Part shown: positions 1-5,400 of the stretch, in pieces
Position numbering within the stretch: position 1 is the stretch's first letter
Layout of the letters: every line of letters starts with the position of its first letter
Assembly: GCA_021785395.1 (NCBI GenBank)
Contig: JAJYFO010000004.1
Coordinates: 1 to 37,284 of the forward strand
DNA from: a bacterium
GTDB taxonomy: Bacteria > Cyanobacteriota > Vampirovibrionia > Obscuribacterales > JAKAZS01
DNA: 37,284 bases
Direction of reading: 5' to 3'
Notes under the pieces: generated by a model
Told to the model about the DNA's origin: nothing
What the model saw: only the letters and a program-made list of their open reading frames with translations
Database searches by the model: none
Made by a program: the position numbers and the translations under genes

Positions 1-1
1 T

Positions 2-220
2 TTGGATTGTACTCATGGTTCGCTTTTTTGGCTACTACCATTTTTACAGAAAGAATCATACACTACCTCTTTTGTTGATGTTAGTAATCATCAACACGAG
101 GATGAAATTGAAGAATATATTGAACCTGGTTACAAAGGAACATTTGAGTTTTTTATAGATAAAAATTTTAAGTTGACTTGGAAAAATAATACCGAGCCAT
201 TCCCTGTAATTTCATTCTAA
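2..220 (+). CDS. hypothetical protein, C-terminal part (gene probably starts upstream of the window); paralog of 280..699
   Basis: The frame is open to the window edge. The last ~60 aa align with the C-terminus of the next ORF (DCT.. vs ECT.., KGTFEFFIDKNFKLTWK vs KGTFNIFINKNYKVTVK). No family recognised. Confidence 0.45.
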   Translation: MDCTHGSLFWLLPFLQKESYTTSFVDVSNHQHEDEIEEYIEPGYKGTFEFFIDKNFKLTWKNNTEPFPVISF

Positions 221-279
221 CTTTTTTTATAGGTCATTTTTTGTTAAAATTAACTGGTTGCTAAAAGGAATTATTTTTA

Positions 280-699
280 ATGGTATTTGGACATCAAAAA
301 ATTGTACATCGACATGATATTTGTTTTCTTTTAGCCAGATTATTTTTTATAATTTTTGCGATAGTTTGGCTCGTATATTTTTTCGATTTAAATCCTAAAA
401 TAATATTGGATAGTAATGGAATTTTGTATGTAATAAACAATGGTACTAATGAGACAATTAAAGATATTAAAATTAAATATAATGATGGTGAATGTACTTT
501 AGACCTTATTCCCGAAAGTTCTAATAGATATCTGCTTGTTAATTATTATGGTCAGCTTAGAAAACAATCACTGTCATTTTTTGATAAAAATAATATTGAG
601 CATATTGCTTATATAGATGCAAAGATTGGTTCTAATTTTAGCAATAAAGGCACATTTAATATTTTTATCAATAAAAATTATAAAGTAACTGTTAAATAG
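280..699 (+). CDS. hypothetical small membrane-anchored protein (one N-terminal TM helix), paralog of 2..220
   Basis: ATG start with aaagga upstream. Hydrophobic stretch ICFLLARLFFIIFAIVWLVYFF. C-terminal similarity to the preceding ORF. Confidence 0.55.
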   Translation: MVFGHQKIVHRHDICFLLARLFFIIFAIVWLVYFFDLNPKIILDSNGILYVINNGTNETIKDIKIKYNDGECTLDLIPESSNRYLLVNYYGQLRKQSLSFFDKNNIEHIAYIDAKIGSNFSNKGTFNIFINKNYKVTVK

Positions 700-1816: not shown

Positions 1817-2344
1817 TTGAAAGCATTGAGCAAAGACGTTATTGAAGTCGTAAAACGAGAGTTTGAGCCAATATGTGGAAAGCCCTGTTGGTTAGTAACT
1901 TATGATCGTTCTTCTGGGGTAAGGATTAATTTTGGCGAGCCCTATCTAATAATTAAAGAACTTAAAGAAACGATAAAAAATTCAAAACGTAAAATTACGG
2001 TTTTTGGGCAATGGTCTTTAATGGTAAGGCACTGCCATTGGGGATTCTATTTGAATGATAGAGGTCTTGCCCACGACAATTCACCAATTGATGTTGTCAA
2101 TACAATATTGCCAATGTTGGATGGTCAAATTCTAGTTTCTGTAGTGGTTGACACTGAACGCGAATGTACTGAATTTTGCTTTGAATTAGGTGATGTTCTG
2201 CAGACTAGATCTTATGATCAATATGATAAAAAATATATGGATATTGATAAGCCAGCTTATGATTGGATATTGTATAAACCGGATCAGGCCGCCTTTTCTT
2301 ATCGAGGTGATGGGATTTATAAATATGGCAAAGGTCTAAAATGA
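1817..2344 (+). CDS. hypothetical protein, tandem paralog B
   Basis: TTG start with gagg ~10 nt upstream. Roughly one-third identical to paralog A overall by eye, but identical over residues 7-27. Confidence 0.6.
   Translation: MKALSKDVIEVVKREFEPICGKPCWLVTYDRSSGVRINFGEPYLIIKELKETIKNSKRKITVFGQWSLMVRHCHWGFYLNDRGLAHDNSPIDVVNTILPMLDGQILVSVVVDTERECTEFCFELGDVLQTRSYDQYDKKYMDIDKPAYDWILYKPDQAAFSYRGDGIYKYGKGLK
1835..1891 (+). repeat. 57-nt block, copy 2
   Basis: gacgttattgaagtcgtaaaacgagagtttgagccaatatgtggaaagccctgttgg. Confidence 0.9.
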
Positions 2345-2400
2345 ATGAGTTACAATAACTCTTTTTAATATAAATTAATTTTATTAAATTCAAAAATTTA

Positions 2401-5400
2401 TTATTTATTGCCTTGATTTTCTTCATTATTGGTGGCAACTTGGGTTGGCAAGGTTGGCGTTCTAAAGTTGACACCAGTATCACCAATTAATGGTTGACCT
2501 AATAAGTTAACGGTAATTTGGTTGGTATACGCGTCACCATAGCTACCAAACAGCATTGTGGCCTGACCGGTACCTGTTATAATCATGCTTTGGGCGTTGC
2601 CCCACATTGTAGGCCTTCCGTTTGGATAGTCTTCAGCTAACGGACTCCACATAATCGTTTGAATCGTGAACGTGCCATTTTTGTCGATAATACGGGCAAT
2701 ATTATTTTTATAATCGACCGAGGCCGAGCTGCCGTCGGTAAAATGGTACACTAAGGCGGTTAAATAACGCTCAACTTGGGTAGCATTGACACTACTTAAT
2801 CCGGTTTGGATCCCGTTGGGGAAGTCTTCAACGACAGACAATCCATCGGCTCGTTTGGTTAAATTCATACCGCCTTCGCGCAAATAAGTCATGTCGCCGT
2901 TGGGTTTTTCAACCATCCTTTCGACGTAACCGTACGTTGTATTTACCGGATTGACCAATTGATAGACTTTATTGCCGTTAGTGCCAAAATAAGTTTTGTC
3001 GCCATTGGGGAATATTTCCAGTGACATAATTTTGCCATAATCAGATGGTTGCAGGTTTCTGAATACAATGTTTTGAATTTGCTGGTCGTTAATAAAATTG
3101 GTCGCATCGGGTCCAGTTATAACTTTTACAACTTTACCAAATTCTCTGTCGTTGATACCAGGCTTAGATTTAGCGTCTGAACTTATAGCCGGATAATTCT
3201 CTTCTATCTTGGGTACGTTTTGAAGTAAATTGCCGTTAGGATCAAGAATATCTAATGAGTTTCCATTGGGTTTGGCAATAAATTCGCTACCGTCGGGTTT
3301 AAAATAAGTCGTTTGTCCAGGTTCGCGTAAAATGGCCTGAAAATTACCAATACTTGTATTAACTGCAGTACCTTTGGGATAAGATTCATAAATTCTTCCT
3401 TGTGTGCTAATTTCTGGTCCTGAATTCAAAGACGTATCGACAGGTGGCTGACTTTGCACTTGCTTGTCTAGAGTTATTTGTTTCTGAGCGCCCAATAAGG
3501 CTTTATCGGCCGCAAAATCTGGTACTTTGGTTACGCTGCGCACAATGCTAGGTGATTGAGCTGCGTCATTCATCCAGTATAGGTCTGACCCGTCATTAAA
3601 TTGCCTGATGCCGACGACATTTTTAAACGAACCAAAATCTTGTGGCGTTTTATAAATGATACCGTGAGACCCGTCTAAAGAATTTTCAAAGACAACGTTG
3701 CCGTTTGTCTGGTTTTCTACGTAGTTAACTTGACCGTAAGGTGATTGAATCGGATCCAGGTATACAACAATGTTAGACCCATCGGCTACGCCATTACTGC
3801 CATTGATTATATTGTATTCTTTGATGTTTTCTAAATGGGTTATGGTCGAAGCCTTGCCGTAGGCTGTTTCAATACTACCATTGGGGGGTGCTTCTTGGAC
3901 AAATTTATATATCTGTCCACTGGGTTCTTGGGCTATAGCGTAGGTTTTTGACCCGTCTGGAAAAAACTGGATTTGCGTAGCTGTTCCAAATTTTGTTTCA
4001 GTGCCGTTAGGATAATTAAGTACTGTGGCTTTATCGATAGCTTGCGACCCAGCTTTACTTGGACCGTCACCATGAAAATCGAGTTTGGCGTCTTTTCCGT
4101 TAAACTTAAAATTATTAAATTCATTATTGTAATGGTCAATGTATGTTCTATTGACCAATGGCCTTAATTTAGCAATTTCATTTAAGTCAATTGGCTTTTG
4201 GGGTGAATTAAGACCCAATTCACTGGCAATTTGGTTTTCAGCTTGATTAGCGATACTTTCCCCGGTGAGTCTGGCTTTGGTGTAGGCTGATTGGGCTTCG
4301 TCTTCTTGGCCATGATTTATTAGATCTTGGGCTCGCTCAAAGCCAGCCTTAATGTTTGGGTCATGATAACTTGATAAATGAGCCAATTCGTGGCCTAATA
4401 CACTGCCGTCTGGTGAATTAAGGGTGATGGCTTTTTTGCCTATGTCAACTGTGTTTAAGCTCTTCTCAACAATCTTGGCTTTGGCAAAAGGATTGTCGTC
4501 TATTAAATTATCCAATGTTGGCGACTGTCCTGATAAATCATTGACCTTAGCAAACCTTGAAACCTTGATACCATCACCAAATTTATTAGATGTCAGGTCA
4601 ATAACTCGGCTGGCTCCTTCTTGAACGATCGGTAGAAATACGTTAAAGGCACCGCTACTTATCGACTGGTTAATGACGTCGCTAGGTTTAGCCCAGCCAC
4701 CGACAGCTAGGTGGTGACTTAATTCTATCTGAGTAGCTCCGCCAGCTAAACCTGTGGCAAAACGGCCTAGAACTCCACTGGTAGCTTTAAAGCTGTTGCC
4801 AGCTTCGAATACACTGAAACTTGCCATAGTGGCCAAAGCATTGCTCAATCTGGTTTGGTCGTGTCCGGGTGTAAGTATGCTTGAATATAAGCCAGCACCA
4901 ACAATCTGGCCGACTTTTTCATTTGCCATGGTTTTAGCCATAAAACCAGTTAAATCAGCGCTTTCACCAATTTTACATAAACCTAAATTGGTCAATTTAC
5001 CTGCTATAACGTAAGGTACAAGCGACCCCAGCCCACTTGAAGCTTCGTTAAGAAACCAGCCAGCGCTATATTGCTTAGCGTTGCCGGTTTTCAAAGGGTC
5101 TATTTGACTTAAAACTTTTTTATGGGCTATATCTTGACTGGCTTTGTTAACAAGATGAACAATTGAATCGTAACCGTTTATAAAGGCTGAATTGACAAAA
5201 GGATTTACCACATCATTAATAAGCAAACTGTTATTTTTATCATTTTTTTCGACGACAGCTTTATTAATCTTTGCCGAATTTTTCGATTTTTTAGTCTTGT
5301 TTAGTGCATTGATAGATTCACTTAAGTCAGCAATGCTTAATAAATTGCCCTTAATCTTTCCTGCTGCTTGTGGTTTGGTGAAATCTTCAAATTGTGGCAT
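2401..5400 (-). CDS. large (999 aa) HExxH-motif protein with a hydrophobic Gly/Ala-rich region and C-terminal degenerate repeats; putative secreted metalloprotease-like effector or toxin
   Basis: Uninterrupted 3-kb ORF with higher G+C than the neighbouring small ORFs. GHELAHLSSYHD lies at aa 336-347 (HELAH at nt 4378..4392). No N-terminal signal peptide; K/N-rich N-terminus. About 7 units of the type YPNG..(F/Y/W)G......(F)PDG..TY in aa ~460-960. Confidence 0.85.
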   Translation of the reverse strand: MPQFEDFTKPQAAGKIKGNLLSIADLSESINALNKTKKSKNSAKINKAVVEKNDKNNSLLINDVVNPFVNSAFINGYDSIVHLVNKASQDIAHKKVLSQIDPLKTGNAKQYSAGWFLNEASSGLGSLVPYVIAGKLTNLGLCKIGESADLTGFMAKTMANEKVGQIVGAGLYSSILTPGHDQTRLSNALATMASFSVFEAGNSFKATSGVLGRFATGLAGGATQIELSHHLAVGGWAKPSDVINQSISSGAFNVFLPIVQEGASRVIDLTSNKFGDGIKVSRFAKVNDLSGQSPTLDNLIDDNPFAKAKIVEKSLNTVDIGKKAITLNSPDGSVLGHELAHLSSYHDPNIKAGFERAQDLINHGQEDEAQSAYTKARLTGESIANQAENQIASELGLNSPQKPIDLNEIAKLRPLVNRTYIDHYNNEFNNFKFNGKDAKLDFHGDGPSKAGSQAIDKATVLNYPNGTETKFGTATQIQFFPDGSKTYAIAQEPSGQIYKFVQEAPPNGSIETAYGKASTITHLENIKEYNIINGSNGVADGSNIVVYLDPIQSPYGQVNYVENQTNGNVVFENSLDGSHGIIYKTPQDFGSFKNVVGIRQFNDGSDLYWMNDAAQSPSIVRSVTKVPDFAADKALLGAQKQITLDKQVQSQPPVDTSLNSGPEISTQGRIYESYPKGTAVNTSIGNFQAILREPGQTTYFKPDGSEFIAKPNGNSLDILDPNGNLLQNVPKIEENYPAISSDAKSKPGINDREFGKVVKVITGPDATNFINDQQIQNIVFRNLQPSDYGKIMSLEIFPNGDKTYFGTNGNKVYQLVNPVNTTYGYVERMVEKPNGDMTYLREGGMNLTKRADGLSVVEDFPNGIQTGLSSVNATQVERYLTALVYHFTDGSSASVDYKNNIARIIDKNGTFTIQTIMWSPLAEDYPNGRPTMWGNAQSMIITGTGQATMLFGSYGDAYTNQITVNLLGQPLIGDTGVNFRTPTLPTQVATNNEENQGNK

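What the first reader, a model, noticed from the sequence alone, without database searches (positions are those of the whole stretch)
1..5400. Accessory block of unnamed genes: two tandem-paralog pairs plus a convergent 999-aa HExxH repeat protein (candidate effector/toxin locus with immunity-like arrays)
Seen: six consecutive ORFs that I cannot place in any named family sit directly beside a conserved etfBA operon. They are two tandem small membrane-anchored paralogs (2..220, 280..699) and an Asn-rich ORF with an in-frame 18-bp triplication. Then come two tandem ~180-aa paralogs (1206..1760, 1817..2344) and a convergent 3-kb gene. That gene encodes a protein with a single zincin motif, a hydrophobic Gly/Ala-rich segment and degenerate repeats. 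The small-ORF part is visibly more AT-rich: 10 G+C in 421..480, against 27 in 2761..2820 and 29 in 5701..5760. Inference: a large multi-module protein with one catalytic motif next to arrays of small diversifying paralogs is the layout of polymorphic toxin or effector loci with immunity genes. Caveats: the orientation is convergent rather than toxin-then-immunity. No Rhs/YD, PAAR, VgrG, CdiB, ESX or other secretion marker is in the window. The left edge is truncated.
Basis: partly seen in the sequence, partly recalled or inferred. Interest (0 to 1): 0.7.

Follow-up and report, generated by a model that had tools for sequence, protein, structure and literature searches.

The report
Conserved modular protein beside unrelated small-gene insertion
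The region is not a toxin-immunity locus: it holds a conserved gene from an undescribed protein family of non-photosynthetic cyanobacteria (Melainabacteria), next to an unrelated, species-specific insertion of six small genes.

Summary
The toxin-plus-immunity reading fails.

The 999-aa gene is syntenic in at least two related Melainabacteria genomes, in the order etfB | big | PTPS | GlyK. Its 54% identity to the ortholog is ordinary for this neighbourhood. Those relatives lack all six small ORFs and have only 133 bp at that position. The small block is therefore a roughly 3-kb insertion specific to this species (29% GC, flanks 40%), not a partner of the big gene.

The first ~430 aa of the big protein form an undescribed module. 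It has a Gly/Ala/Ser-rich helical part and a zincin-like HExxH...E part. I found it almost only in Melainabacteria/Obscuribacterales. There it is fused to CCA-adding enzyme, isoamylase, DUF2252 or HD domains. Here it is fused to a beta-rich C-terminus.

The 175/189-aa pair belongs to a large family (767 cluster representatives), weakly DUF6188-like. Its members are single-copy in varied contexts. In one of 80 loci the member sits directly after an Rhs toxin gene.

The transmembrane pair and the Asn-rich ORF have no detectable relatives. Interest is modest and rests on the N-terminal module family.

The parts
2..220 (+). 3' part (last ~64 codons reliable) of a 147-aa membrane-anchored small protein, paralog of the next gene. 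Window bases 1-67 do not match other assemblies of the species.
280..699 (+). 139-aa small protein with one N-terminal transmembrane helix (Kyte-Doolittle 2.8) and a ~95-aa beta-rich tail. It is 46% identical to the 147-aa paralog (dN/dS about 0.62). No relatives found.
798..1178 (+). 126-aa Asn-rich ORF (26 Asn) with no relatives found. Its 3' end is the most strain-variable spot of the block.
1088..1135 (+). In-frame 18-bp tandem repeat, 2.7 copies. There are three units here and two in other assemblies of the species.
1191..1760 (+). 189-aa member of a large family distantly related to DUF6188, with an acidic C-terminal insert. Tandem paralog of the next gene.
1817..2344 (+). 175-aa member of the same family. 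It is 42% identical to the 189-aa paralog, with the first ~27 residues nearly identical (dN/dS about 0.40).
2401..5400 (-). 999-aa protein, a conserved syntenic gene and member of a Melainabacteria-specific family defined by its N-terminal module.
4576..5223 (-). Residues ~60-275: Gly/Ala/Ser-rich helical part of the N-terminal module. Invariant positions include W115, VP128-129, AGK133-135, GA168-169, N187, R213 and LP256-257.
4201..4548 (-). Residues ~285-400: zincin-like part. Three short predicted strands are followed by the HELAH helix and then helices carrying R377, E381 and E388. Model pLDDT is 67-84.
4378..4392 (-). HELAH motif (H337-H341), the only HExxH in the protein.
2404..4038 (-). 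Residues ~455-999: beta-rich C-terminal region with a recurring [YF]P[NDS]G motif. It is shared only with the orthologs, and only residues 460-550 are modelled with confidence.
5401..5595 (.). AT-rich intergenic region between the big gene and the divergently transcribed etfB. This arrangement is conserved in relatives.

Best explanation
Two independent things lie side by side.

(1) Gene 2401..5400(-) is a vertically inherited chromosomal gene. It belongs to an undescribed protein family found almost only in Melainabacteria/Obscuribacterales. The family is defined by a ~430-aa N-terminal module: a Gly/Ala/Ser-rich helical bundle followed by a small zincin-like HExxH...E domain. In other genomes this module is fused to intact, cytoplasmic-type enzymes (CCA-adding enzyme, isoamylase, DUF2252, HD phosphohydrolase). 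Here it is fused to a ~550-aa beta-hairpin-rich region.

Inferred: the module is a shared targeting, tethering or self-processing unit. It places, and perhaps releases by metal-dependent cleavage, whatever C-terminal domain it carries. In this protein that C-terminal domain is a binding rather than a catalytic domain.

(2) Window 1..2344, continuing about 0.7 kb beyond the left edge, is a ~3-kb AT-rich insertion specific to this species. It lies between the big gene and the PTPS gene and holds six co-directional small genes, two of which duplicated in tandem within this lineage. The 175/189-aa pair belongs to a widespread family of single-copy small cytoplasmic proteins, weakly DUF6188-like. 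The membrane-anchored pair, the Asn-rich ORF and a 40-aa ORF have no detectable relatives.

The big gene and the small block are not functionally coupled.
For: Shown:
- Relatives have the order etfB-big-PTPS-GlyK with 133 bp between big and PTPS and none of the small ORFs. Assemblies of the window's own species carry the six small ORFs at that spot.
- The block is 28.7% GC and its flanks about 40%.
- Big-protein identity to the ortholog is 54%. MutS2 is 55%, GlyK 57% and neighbouring hypothetical proteins 42-46%. Identity is even along the length apart from one 55-aa indel.
- The N-terminal module was found in 45 loci, nearly all Obscuribacterales/Melainabacteria MAGs, often with two or three loci per genome.
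- C-termini differ by orthogroup: PolyA_pol+RNAbd+HD, CBM48+Alpha-amylase+ISOA_C, DUF2252, HD, or no Pfam match.
- Each orthogroup has its own stable synteny. None shares a secretion or immunity neighbour.
- HExxH is present in 25 of 28 members. E381 and E388 are invariant and R377 nearly so.
- The AlphaFold2 model gives strands, then the HExxH helix, then Glu-bearing helices, at pLDDT 67-84.
- Sub-threshold Pfam Peptidase_M91 hits cover this region: E=4.8e-4 in the ortholog (model positions 26-172 of 176) and E=0.094 in the window protein.
- The 175/189 family has 767 representatives at E<=1e-3. In 54 of the 80 metagenome loci fetched for it, no second copy lay among up to three ORFs on either side, and neighbours were heterogeneous.
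- The paralog pairs have dN/dS of 0.40 and 0.62, so they are coding and under some constraint.
- The window holds no secretion apparatus.
Against: - The role of the N-terminal module is inferred, not shown. It has no PDB sequence match and no convincing fold match.
- A profile comparison with E. coli NleD gave 0.3% probability, so even the peptidase assignment rests on motif conservation and predicted secondary structure.
- The structure model is poor overall (mean pLDDT 52).
- A conserved N-terminal module with swapped C-termini is also the architecture of delivered effectors. I could not check whether the CCA and isoamylase fusions are the only such enzymes in their genomes.
- One relative of the 175/189 family lies immediately after an Rhs toxin gene. 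An immunity-type role for that pair is therefore not excluded.
- Relatives are known only from MAG contigs, so the small genes could exist elsewhere in those genomes.
Confidence: 0.6

Rival explanations
1. The 999-aa protein is a polymorphic toxin or effector, and the adjacent small paralog arrays are its immunity genes.
For: - The N-terminal module occurs with different C-termini across the family.
- There is a single conserved HExxH motif.
- The tandem paralogs show relaxed constraint, with dN/dS of 0.40-0.62.
- The block is AT-rich.
- One relative of the 175/189 family follows an Rhs toxin gene.
Against: - Orthologs with the same C-terminus lack all the small genes.
- The big gene is convergent with the block.
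- Its divergence rate is ordinary.
- No toxin, trafficking, Rhs/YD or secretion domain was found in the protein or the window.
- Other family members have no conserved small downstream gene.
Confidence: 0.05
2. The big protein and its family are delivered effectors of Melainabacteria. The Gly-rich helical part mediates export or entry into a target membrane. The zincin part releases the C-terminal cargo. No immunity gene is needed because the targets are other organisms. The small block is unrelated.
For: - The architecture is a conserved N-terminal module plus interchangeable C-terminal enzymes.
- The first ~60 residues are disordered and variable, with no signal peptide evident.
- The weak Pfam similarities are to effector-associated zincins: Peptidase_M91 and eCIS_core PF13699.
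- The family is lineage-restricted and multi-copy per genome.
Against: - The cargo domains (full CCA-adding enzyme with HD, isoamylase with CBM48) are ones I know as cytoplasmic housekeeping enzymes. P0003 shows GGAVRD, DYD and RRD motifs, which I read as an intact catalytic site (sequence; interpretation from my own knowledge).
- Orthogroups are stable in synteny and single-copy, not polymorphic.
- No delivery-system genes are nearby.
- Hydropathy is below my transmembrane threshold.
- The family is absent from viral contigs.
Confidence: 0.2
3. The small block, or at least the 175/189-aa pair, is an orphan immunity islet. It would protect against toxins made by competitors and is independent of the big gene.
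For: - In L073 a family member lies about 100 nt downstream of, and co-directional with, an Rhs protein (RHS_repeat E=6.6e-28). That protein ends its core in '...YDPYSGRWLSKDPIGEQG', which I recognise as the Rhs core-end motif. An Rhs fragment follows the family member.
- The pair arose by tandem duplication and shows moderate dN/dS.
- It sits in a species-specific insertion.
Against: - Only 1 of 80 loci has an Rhs context.
- The neighbours of 54 loci hit 133 different Pfam families, and no toxin or immunity family is among those shared by two or more neighbours.
- No tandem copies occur elsewhere.
- No Pfam immunity family matches beyond one weak Imm27 hit at E=0.021.
- The structure model was unusable at pLDDT 37.
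Confidence: 0.15

Closest known systems
N-terminal zincin modules of modular toxins (Pfam PF13699, DUF4157 / eCIS_core)
   Same: An HExxH-containing module sits at the N-terminus and is followed by interchangeable C-terminal domains. Two of 28 family members give weak PF13699 hits (best E=0.067).
   Different: - All hits are far below threshold.
- No contractile-injection genes lie near any locus.
- The module has an extra ~215-aa Gly/Ala/Ser-rich helical part.
- The C-termini are housekeeping-type enzymes in stable orthogroups.
Peptidase_M91 (PF14891, NleD-like type III effector zinc proteases)
   Same: The best Pfam similarity falls on the HExxH region. The ortholog L007 scores 20.9 bits at E=4.8e-4 over model positions 26-172 of 176. 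The window protein scores E=0.094 over residues 328-398.
   Different: The score is below the curated cut-off of 25 bits. A profile comparison with E. coli O157 NleD gave 0.3% probability. Here the domain is embedded in a much larger protein.
DUF6188 (PF19686), function unknown
   Same: This concerns the 175/189-aa pair. Five of 80 relatives give weak DUF6188 hits (best E=2.7e-4). Size is similar, and the predicted secondary structure mixes helices and strands.
   Different: The window proteins themselves give no hit. No paper in the searchable library mentions DUF6188, so the name adds no function.
Rhs / YD-repeat toxin-immunity loci
   Same: The big protein's C-terminus is built of beta-hairpins and gives weak Foldseek hits to the teneurin YD shell and to CPAP TCP10 (G-box) sheets. 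One relative of the 175/189 family follows an Rhs gene.
   Different: - No RHS_repeat Pfam hit.
- No YD motif anywhere in the window.
- Query-normalised TM-scores to the teneurin YD shell are only 0.08.
- I saw no Rhs core-end motif or toxin tip.
- No co-directional downstream gene.

Membership tests
Polymorphic toxin-immunity system | Recognisable N-terminal trafficking or secretion domain (Rhs/YD, PAAR, LXG, TPS, VgrG and the like) | tested here: not met
   No Pfam or NCBIfam hit. No YD motif in the window. No secretion genes in the window.
Polymorphic toxin-immunity system | C-terminal toxin domain swapped between close relatives while the N-terminus stays conserved | tested here: not met
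   Identity to the ortholog is 50-74% per 50-residue block across residues 451-999, except 601-700, which spans a 55-aa indel (14% and 36%). That is as high as in the N-terminus. C-termini differ only between distant paralogous orthogroups.
Polymorphic toxin-immunity system | Immunity gene immediately downstream, co-directional and co-inherited | tested here: not met
   The small genes are convergent with the big gene and absent from all relatives that carry it.
Polymorphic toxin-immunity system | Toxicity that is neutralised by the cognate small protein | not testable with these tools
   This needs an expression experiment.
Zincin (gluzincin-type) metallopeptidase | Conserved HExxH on a helix | tested here: met
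   H337 is present in 26 of 28 members, E338 in 27 and H341 in 25. The motif lies in predicted helix 332-344.
Zincin (gluzincin-type) metallopeptidase | Third metal ligand (Glu) on a downstream helix, and a beta-sheet preceding the active-site helix | tested here: inconclusive
   E381 and E388 are invariant and lie on predicted helix 366-394. Strands 307-327 precede the motif. No structural match confirms the fold.
Peptidase_M91 (PF14891) | Score above Pfam's gathering threshold | tested here: not met
   Best score is 20.9 bits against a cut-off of 25. The window protein scores 13.5 bits. hhalign against NleD gave 0.3% probability.
DUF6188 (PF19686), for the 175/189-aa pair | Score above Pfam's gathering threshold | tested here: not met
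   The window proteins give no hit at E<=1. Only 5 of 80 relatives give weak hits, best E=2.7e-4. The link is at most a distant relationship.
Immunity protein (functional class), for the 175/189-aa pair | Recurrent position directly downstream of toxin genes | tested here: inconclusive
   One of 80 loci (L073) follows an Rhs gene. The other loci have heterogeneous neighbours. Many contigs are short.
Rhs / YD-repeat protein, for the big protein's C-terminus | YD repeats, Rhs core-end motif and C-terminal toxin tip | tested here: not met
   No RHS_repeat hit. No YD motif. Only low-TM Foldseek hits.

The most novel reading that the evidence does not exclude
The ~430-aa N-terminal module would be a delivery-and-release device specific to Melainabacteria. 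The Gly/Ala/Ser-rich helical part would take the protein out of the cell or into a target membrane. The zincin part would then cut off the C-terminal cargo. Obscuribacterales would thus export whole enzymes (a CCA-adding/HD enzyme, isoamylase, DUF2252) and, in this genome, a beta-repeat binding protein. That would be a new class of effector architecture in a phylum that includes predatory members.
Probability: 0.12. Interest if true: 0.75.

Novelty: new variant of a known kind. Interest (0 to 1): 0.33.

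Why it matters
As a candidate toxin-immunity locus it does not hold up, so it should not be carried forward as one.

What remains is a conserved, lineage-restricted N-terminal module with a probable metal-binding site. It is attached to unrelated enzymes, including what looks like the CCA-adding enzyme and the glycogen-debranching enzyme, in a poorly studied, mostly uncultured phylum. If the module tethers or regulates housekeeping enzymes, that is an unusual piece of cell organisation. If it exports them, it is a new effector type.

The 175/189-aa family, with hundreds of cluster representatives, no function and one Rhs-linked member, is a reasonable candidate for a new immunity family.

None of this opens a long-standing question directly.

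Tried and rejected
- Pfam, NCBIfam, PADLOC and PHROGs scans of all six proteins found nothing usable.
- PDB sequence searches found nothing real. This covers the 999-aa protein, the N-module profile, the 175/189 family profile, the transmembrane-pair profile and P0009. The neurexin and 'Pizza' hits are short or repetitive chance matches.
- The AlphaFold2 model of the 175-aa protein, built from two sequences, reached pLDDT 37 and was not searched.
- A Foldseek search of the 999-aa model returned only generic beta-repeat and propeller hits, with query-normalised TM-scores of 0.05-0.09.
- Self-BLAST for internal repeats in the C-terminus found none.
- The Peptidase_M91 link was tested against E. 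coli NleD, with NleC as a control, and is not supported.
- A viral origin is rejected: the N-module and the 175/189 family were not found in viral contigs.
- A mobile-element origin of the block has no support from an integrase or phage-gene hit. I did not run the repeat or tRNA tools on it.
- Promoter and terminator scans were at chance level.
- A 1707-aa 'neighbour' in L058 turned out to be an antisense ORF artefact of high-GC DNA.
- Metagenome and viral scans with broad family alignments failed for lack of a conserved stretch. The scan for the transmembrane pair found nothing.
- Literature searches for Obscuribacterales effectors and for DUF6188 found nothing relevant.

Full report
**Observation**

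All six ORFs are at the coordinates given.
- The 189-aa and 175-aa proteins are 42% identical (E=2e-42). Their first ~27 residues are almost identical.
- ORF 2..220 is the tail of a 147-aa gene. Other assemblies of the same species carry it complete (L004, L005). That protein is 46% identical to the 139-aa protein.
- The 18-bp repeat (1088-1135, 2.7 perfect copies) is real and in frame.
- Window 1-1000 is the most AT-rich kilobase of the 37-kb window.
- None of the six proteins matches a Pfam, NCBIfam, PADLOC or PHROGs family.

Four details need correcting.
- The first paralog's membrane anchor lies outside the window.
- Window bases 1-67 match nothing in the other assemblies.
- Self-BLAST does not detect repeats in the big protein.
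- The Gly/Ala-rich part is below what I take as the hydropathy level of a membrane helix.

**Where the window comes from**

The identical or near-identical 999-aa protein is on a contig of GCA_027399225.1 and on two metagenome contigs. Relatives of its N-terminal part come almost only from MAGs labelled Melainabacteria or Obscuribacterales. The window is therefore from a non-photosynthetic cyanobacterial (Melainabacteria) genome of about 36% GC.

**The big gene and the small block are not a unit**

A 938-aa protein is 54% identical over 95% of the length. It lies in two or three related genomes in the same order: ETF-QO, etfA, etfB, then the divergently transcribed big gene, then PTPS and glycerate kinase. 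In those genomes only 133 bp separate the big gene from PTPS. A tblastn search finds none of the six small proteins in the fetched flanks.

In the window's own species the same interval holds about 3 kb with six co-directional small ORFs of 40, 147, 139, 104-126, 189 and 175 aa. This block is 28.7% GC and its flanks are about 40%. It is therefore a species-specific insertion, or was lost in every relative sampled.

The big protein's 54% identity is ordinary for this neighbourhood. MutS2 is 55%, glycerate kinase 57%, PTPS 71%, and two hypothetical proteins and a trypsin-like protein are 42-46%. Only the Etf proteins stand out, at 87-91%. Identity is even along the protein, C-terminus included, apart from one 55-residue indel. 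I see no sign of a hypervariable toxin tip.

**What the big protein is**

Database searches found few relatives. Those found share only the first ~430 residues and carry other C-termini. A scan of one genome per species found 45 loci, often two or three per genome. I extracted the ORFs and scanned representatives against Pfam. The C-termini fall into these groups:
- PolyA_pol + PolyA_pol_RNAbd + HD, the architecture I know from E. coli-type CCA-adding enzyme. P0003 has GGAVRD, DYD and RRD motifs, which I read as an intact catalytic site (sequence).
- CBM48 + Alpha-amylase + ISOA1-3_C, an isoamylase or debranching enzyme.
- DUF2252.
- A ~1600-aa form with an HD domain.
- A 660-aa form with no Pfam match that shares only the first half of the module.
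- The window's own group, with a beta-rich C-terminus shared only with its orthologs.

At least eight genomes carry both a CCA-type and an isoamylase-type copy. Each group has its own conserved synteny. No neighbour is shared across all groups; the only cross-group one is a TPR-repeat protein. No secretion or immunity-like gene is nearby.

**The N-terminal module**

In a 28-sequence alignment (A4) the module has two parts.
- Residues ~60-275 are Gly/Ala/Ser-rich (35%). Invariant positions include VP128-129, AGK133-135, GA168-169, N187, R213 and LP256-257. The part is predicted as long helices. Its hydropathy peaks at 1.2-1.35, so I do not call it transmembrane.
- Residues ~285-400 have three short strands, then the HExxH helix (present in 25 of 28), then helices carrying R377 and the invariant E381 and E388. 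This is the layout I know from small gluzincins.

The best Pfam similarity is to Peptidase_M91. It scores 20.9 bits in the ortholog, over nearly the full model length and below the 25-bit cut-off. It scores 13.5 bits in the window protein. Two members also give weak hits to PF13699. A profile comparison with E. coli NleD did not support membership.

No PDB sequence matches the module. The whole-protein model (mean pLDDT 52) gave only generic beta-repeat fold hits from its C-terminal half: CPAP TCP10 (G-box) sheets, the teneurin YD shell and propellers, at very low query-normalised TM-scores. The module was not found in viral contigs.

**What the small genes are**

An exhaustive profile search with the 175/189 pair found 767 cluster representatives at E<=1e-3 and 362 at E<=1e-10. 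Nearly all of the best 150 are 140-230 aa long.
- Five of 80 give weak DUF6188 hits.
- Eighty metagenome loci were fetched for this family. Their median GC is 59%.
- In the 54 longer loci analysed, the gene is single-copy and its neighbours are heterogeneous.
- The one exception is L073. There the gene lies directly after, and co-directional with, an Rhs protein that ends its core with a DPxG-type motif. An Rhs fragment follows it. This is the classic Rhs toxin-immunity position.

The two window copies are closer to each other (42-45%) than to any other member (36% or less). They are therefore a local tandem duplication. Their dN/dS is about 0.40.

The membrane-anchored pair has dN/dS of about 0.62 and no relatives in the metagenome scan. 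The Asn-rich ORF also has none in the loci held. Between strains, differences cluster in its last ~110 bp, including the repeat copy number of three versus two.

**Rest of the window**

The remainder of the window encodes Etf/ETF-QO, kynurenine-pathway enzymes, histidine kinases, GGDEF proteins, a Sel1-repeat protein, arginase and enoyl-CoA hydratases. No secretion machinery is present.

**Interpretation**

I conclude, with about 0.6 confidence, that the region is a conserved modular gene of an undescribed Melainabacteria family next to an unrelated, species-specific islet of small genes.

The rivals are:
- The family may consist of delivered effectors that need no immunity gene (about 0.2). 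This is favoured by the architecture and by the weak effector-type zincin similarities. It is disfavoured by the housekeeping nature and stable orthology of the C-terminal enzymes.
- The 175/189 pair may be an orphan immunity islet unrelated to the big gene (about 0.15), on the strength of the single Rhs-linked relative.

**Novelty and verdict**

What is there is a new variant of a known theme: a zincin-like N-terminal module with interchangeable C-termini, in a new lineage and with unusual partners. Beside it lie a member pair of a large uncharacterised small-protein family and some small ORFs without detectable relatives. Interest is modest at 0.33. The most novel reading not excluded is a Melainabacteria-specific export-and-release module (probability about 0.12).

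Noticed in passing
L009-L020, L041 and L021-L029, L051 (related loci): In Obscuribacterales the same ~430-aa N-terminal module is fused to a complete-looking CCA-adding enzyme (PolyA_pol+RNAbd+HD) and to an isoamylase (CBM48+Alpha-amylase+ISOA_C). At least eight genomes carry both. I could not check whether these are the only cca and glgX genes in those genomes.
   Followed up: partly
P0009, P0010 and L042-L048 (660-aa group): A 660-aa group shares only the Gly-rich first half of the module and has no HExxH. Its conserved C-terminus has no Pfam or PDB match. It contains 'LFHGT...VSITR' motifs that reminded me of ADP-ribosyltransferase-like signatures; this is a recollection and was not tested.
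   Followed up: partly
L073:1-3300: This is an Rhs locus. A truncated Rhs protein with a DPxG-type core end and a ~150-aa tip is followed by a member of the 175/189-aa family. A 23-aa fragment, 95% identical to part of the Rhs protein, lies just downstream of that member. The layout is that of a toxin-immunity array with an orphan module.
   Followed up: partly
window 1045-1156 and 2977-3010: Differences from other assemblies of the same species are clustered. Ten substitutions plus the 18-bp indel fall within ~110 bp at the 3' end of the Asn-rich ORF, and most of them change the protein. Five substitutions fall within 34 bp of the big gene. Apart from these two clusters, window 68-5700 shows only two other differences (positions 97 and 2812). 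This could reflect short recombination tracts or mixed-strain consensus.
   Followed up: partly
window 1-67: The first 67 bases of the window match nothing in the other assemblies of the species, which align from base 68 onward. This is probably a contig-end artefact or a strain-specific rearrangement inside the 147-aa gene.
   Followed up: partly
window 5596-9332 (etfB, etfA, ETF-QO): The Etf proteins are 87-91% identical between the two species. All other neighbouring proteins are 42-71% identical. This means unusually strong conservation or a recent transfer of the etf operon.
   Followed up: no
window 9349-13591: This is a kynurenine-pathway cluster: a 3-hydroxyanthranilate dioxygenase, an Amidohydro_2 (ACMSD-like) protein, a kynureninase and a FAD monooxygenase. 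It lies directly after the etf genes, according to the Pfam labels on the public contig.
   Followed up: no
window 1226-1290 and 1838-1900: The first ~27 codons of the 189-aa and 175-aa genes are about 80% identical at the DNA level, against 42-62% over most of the rest of the genes (71% in the last few codons). This suggests gene conversion or strong constraint on the N-terminal 'VKREFEPICGKPCWLV' segment.
   Followed up: partly
window 18460-23528: Two GGDEF proteins, one with a receiver domain, flank a Sel1-repeat protein. A CHASE3/PAS histidine kinase lies at 15377-17614. The window is rich in signalling genes.
   Followed up: no
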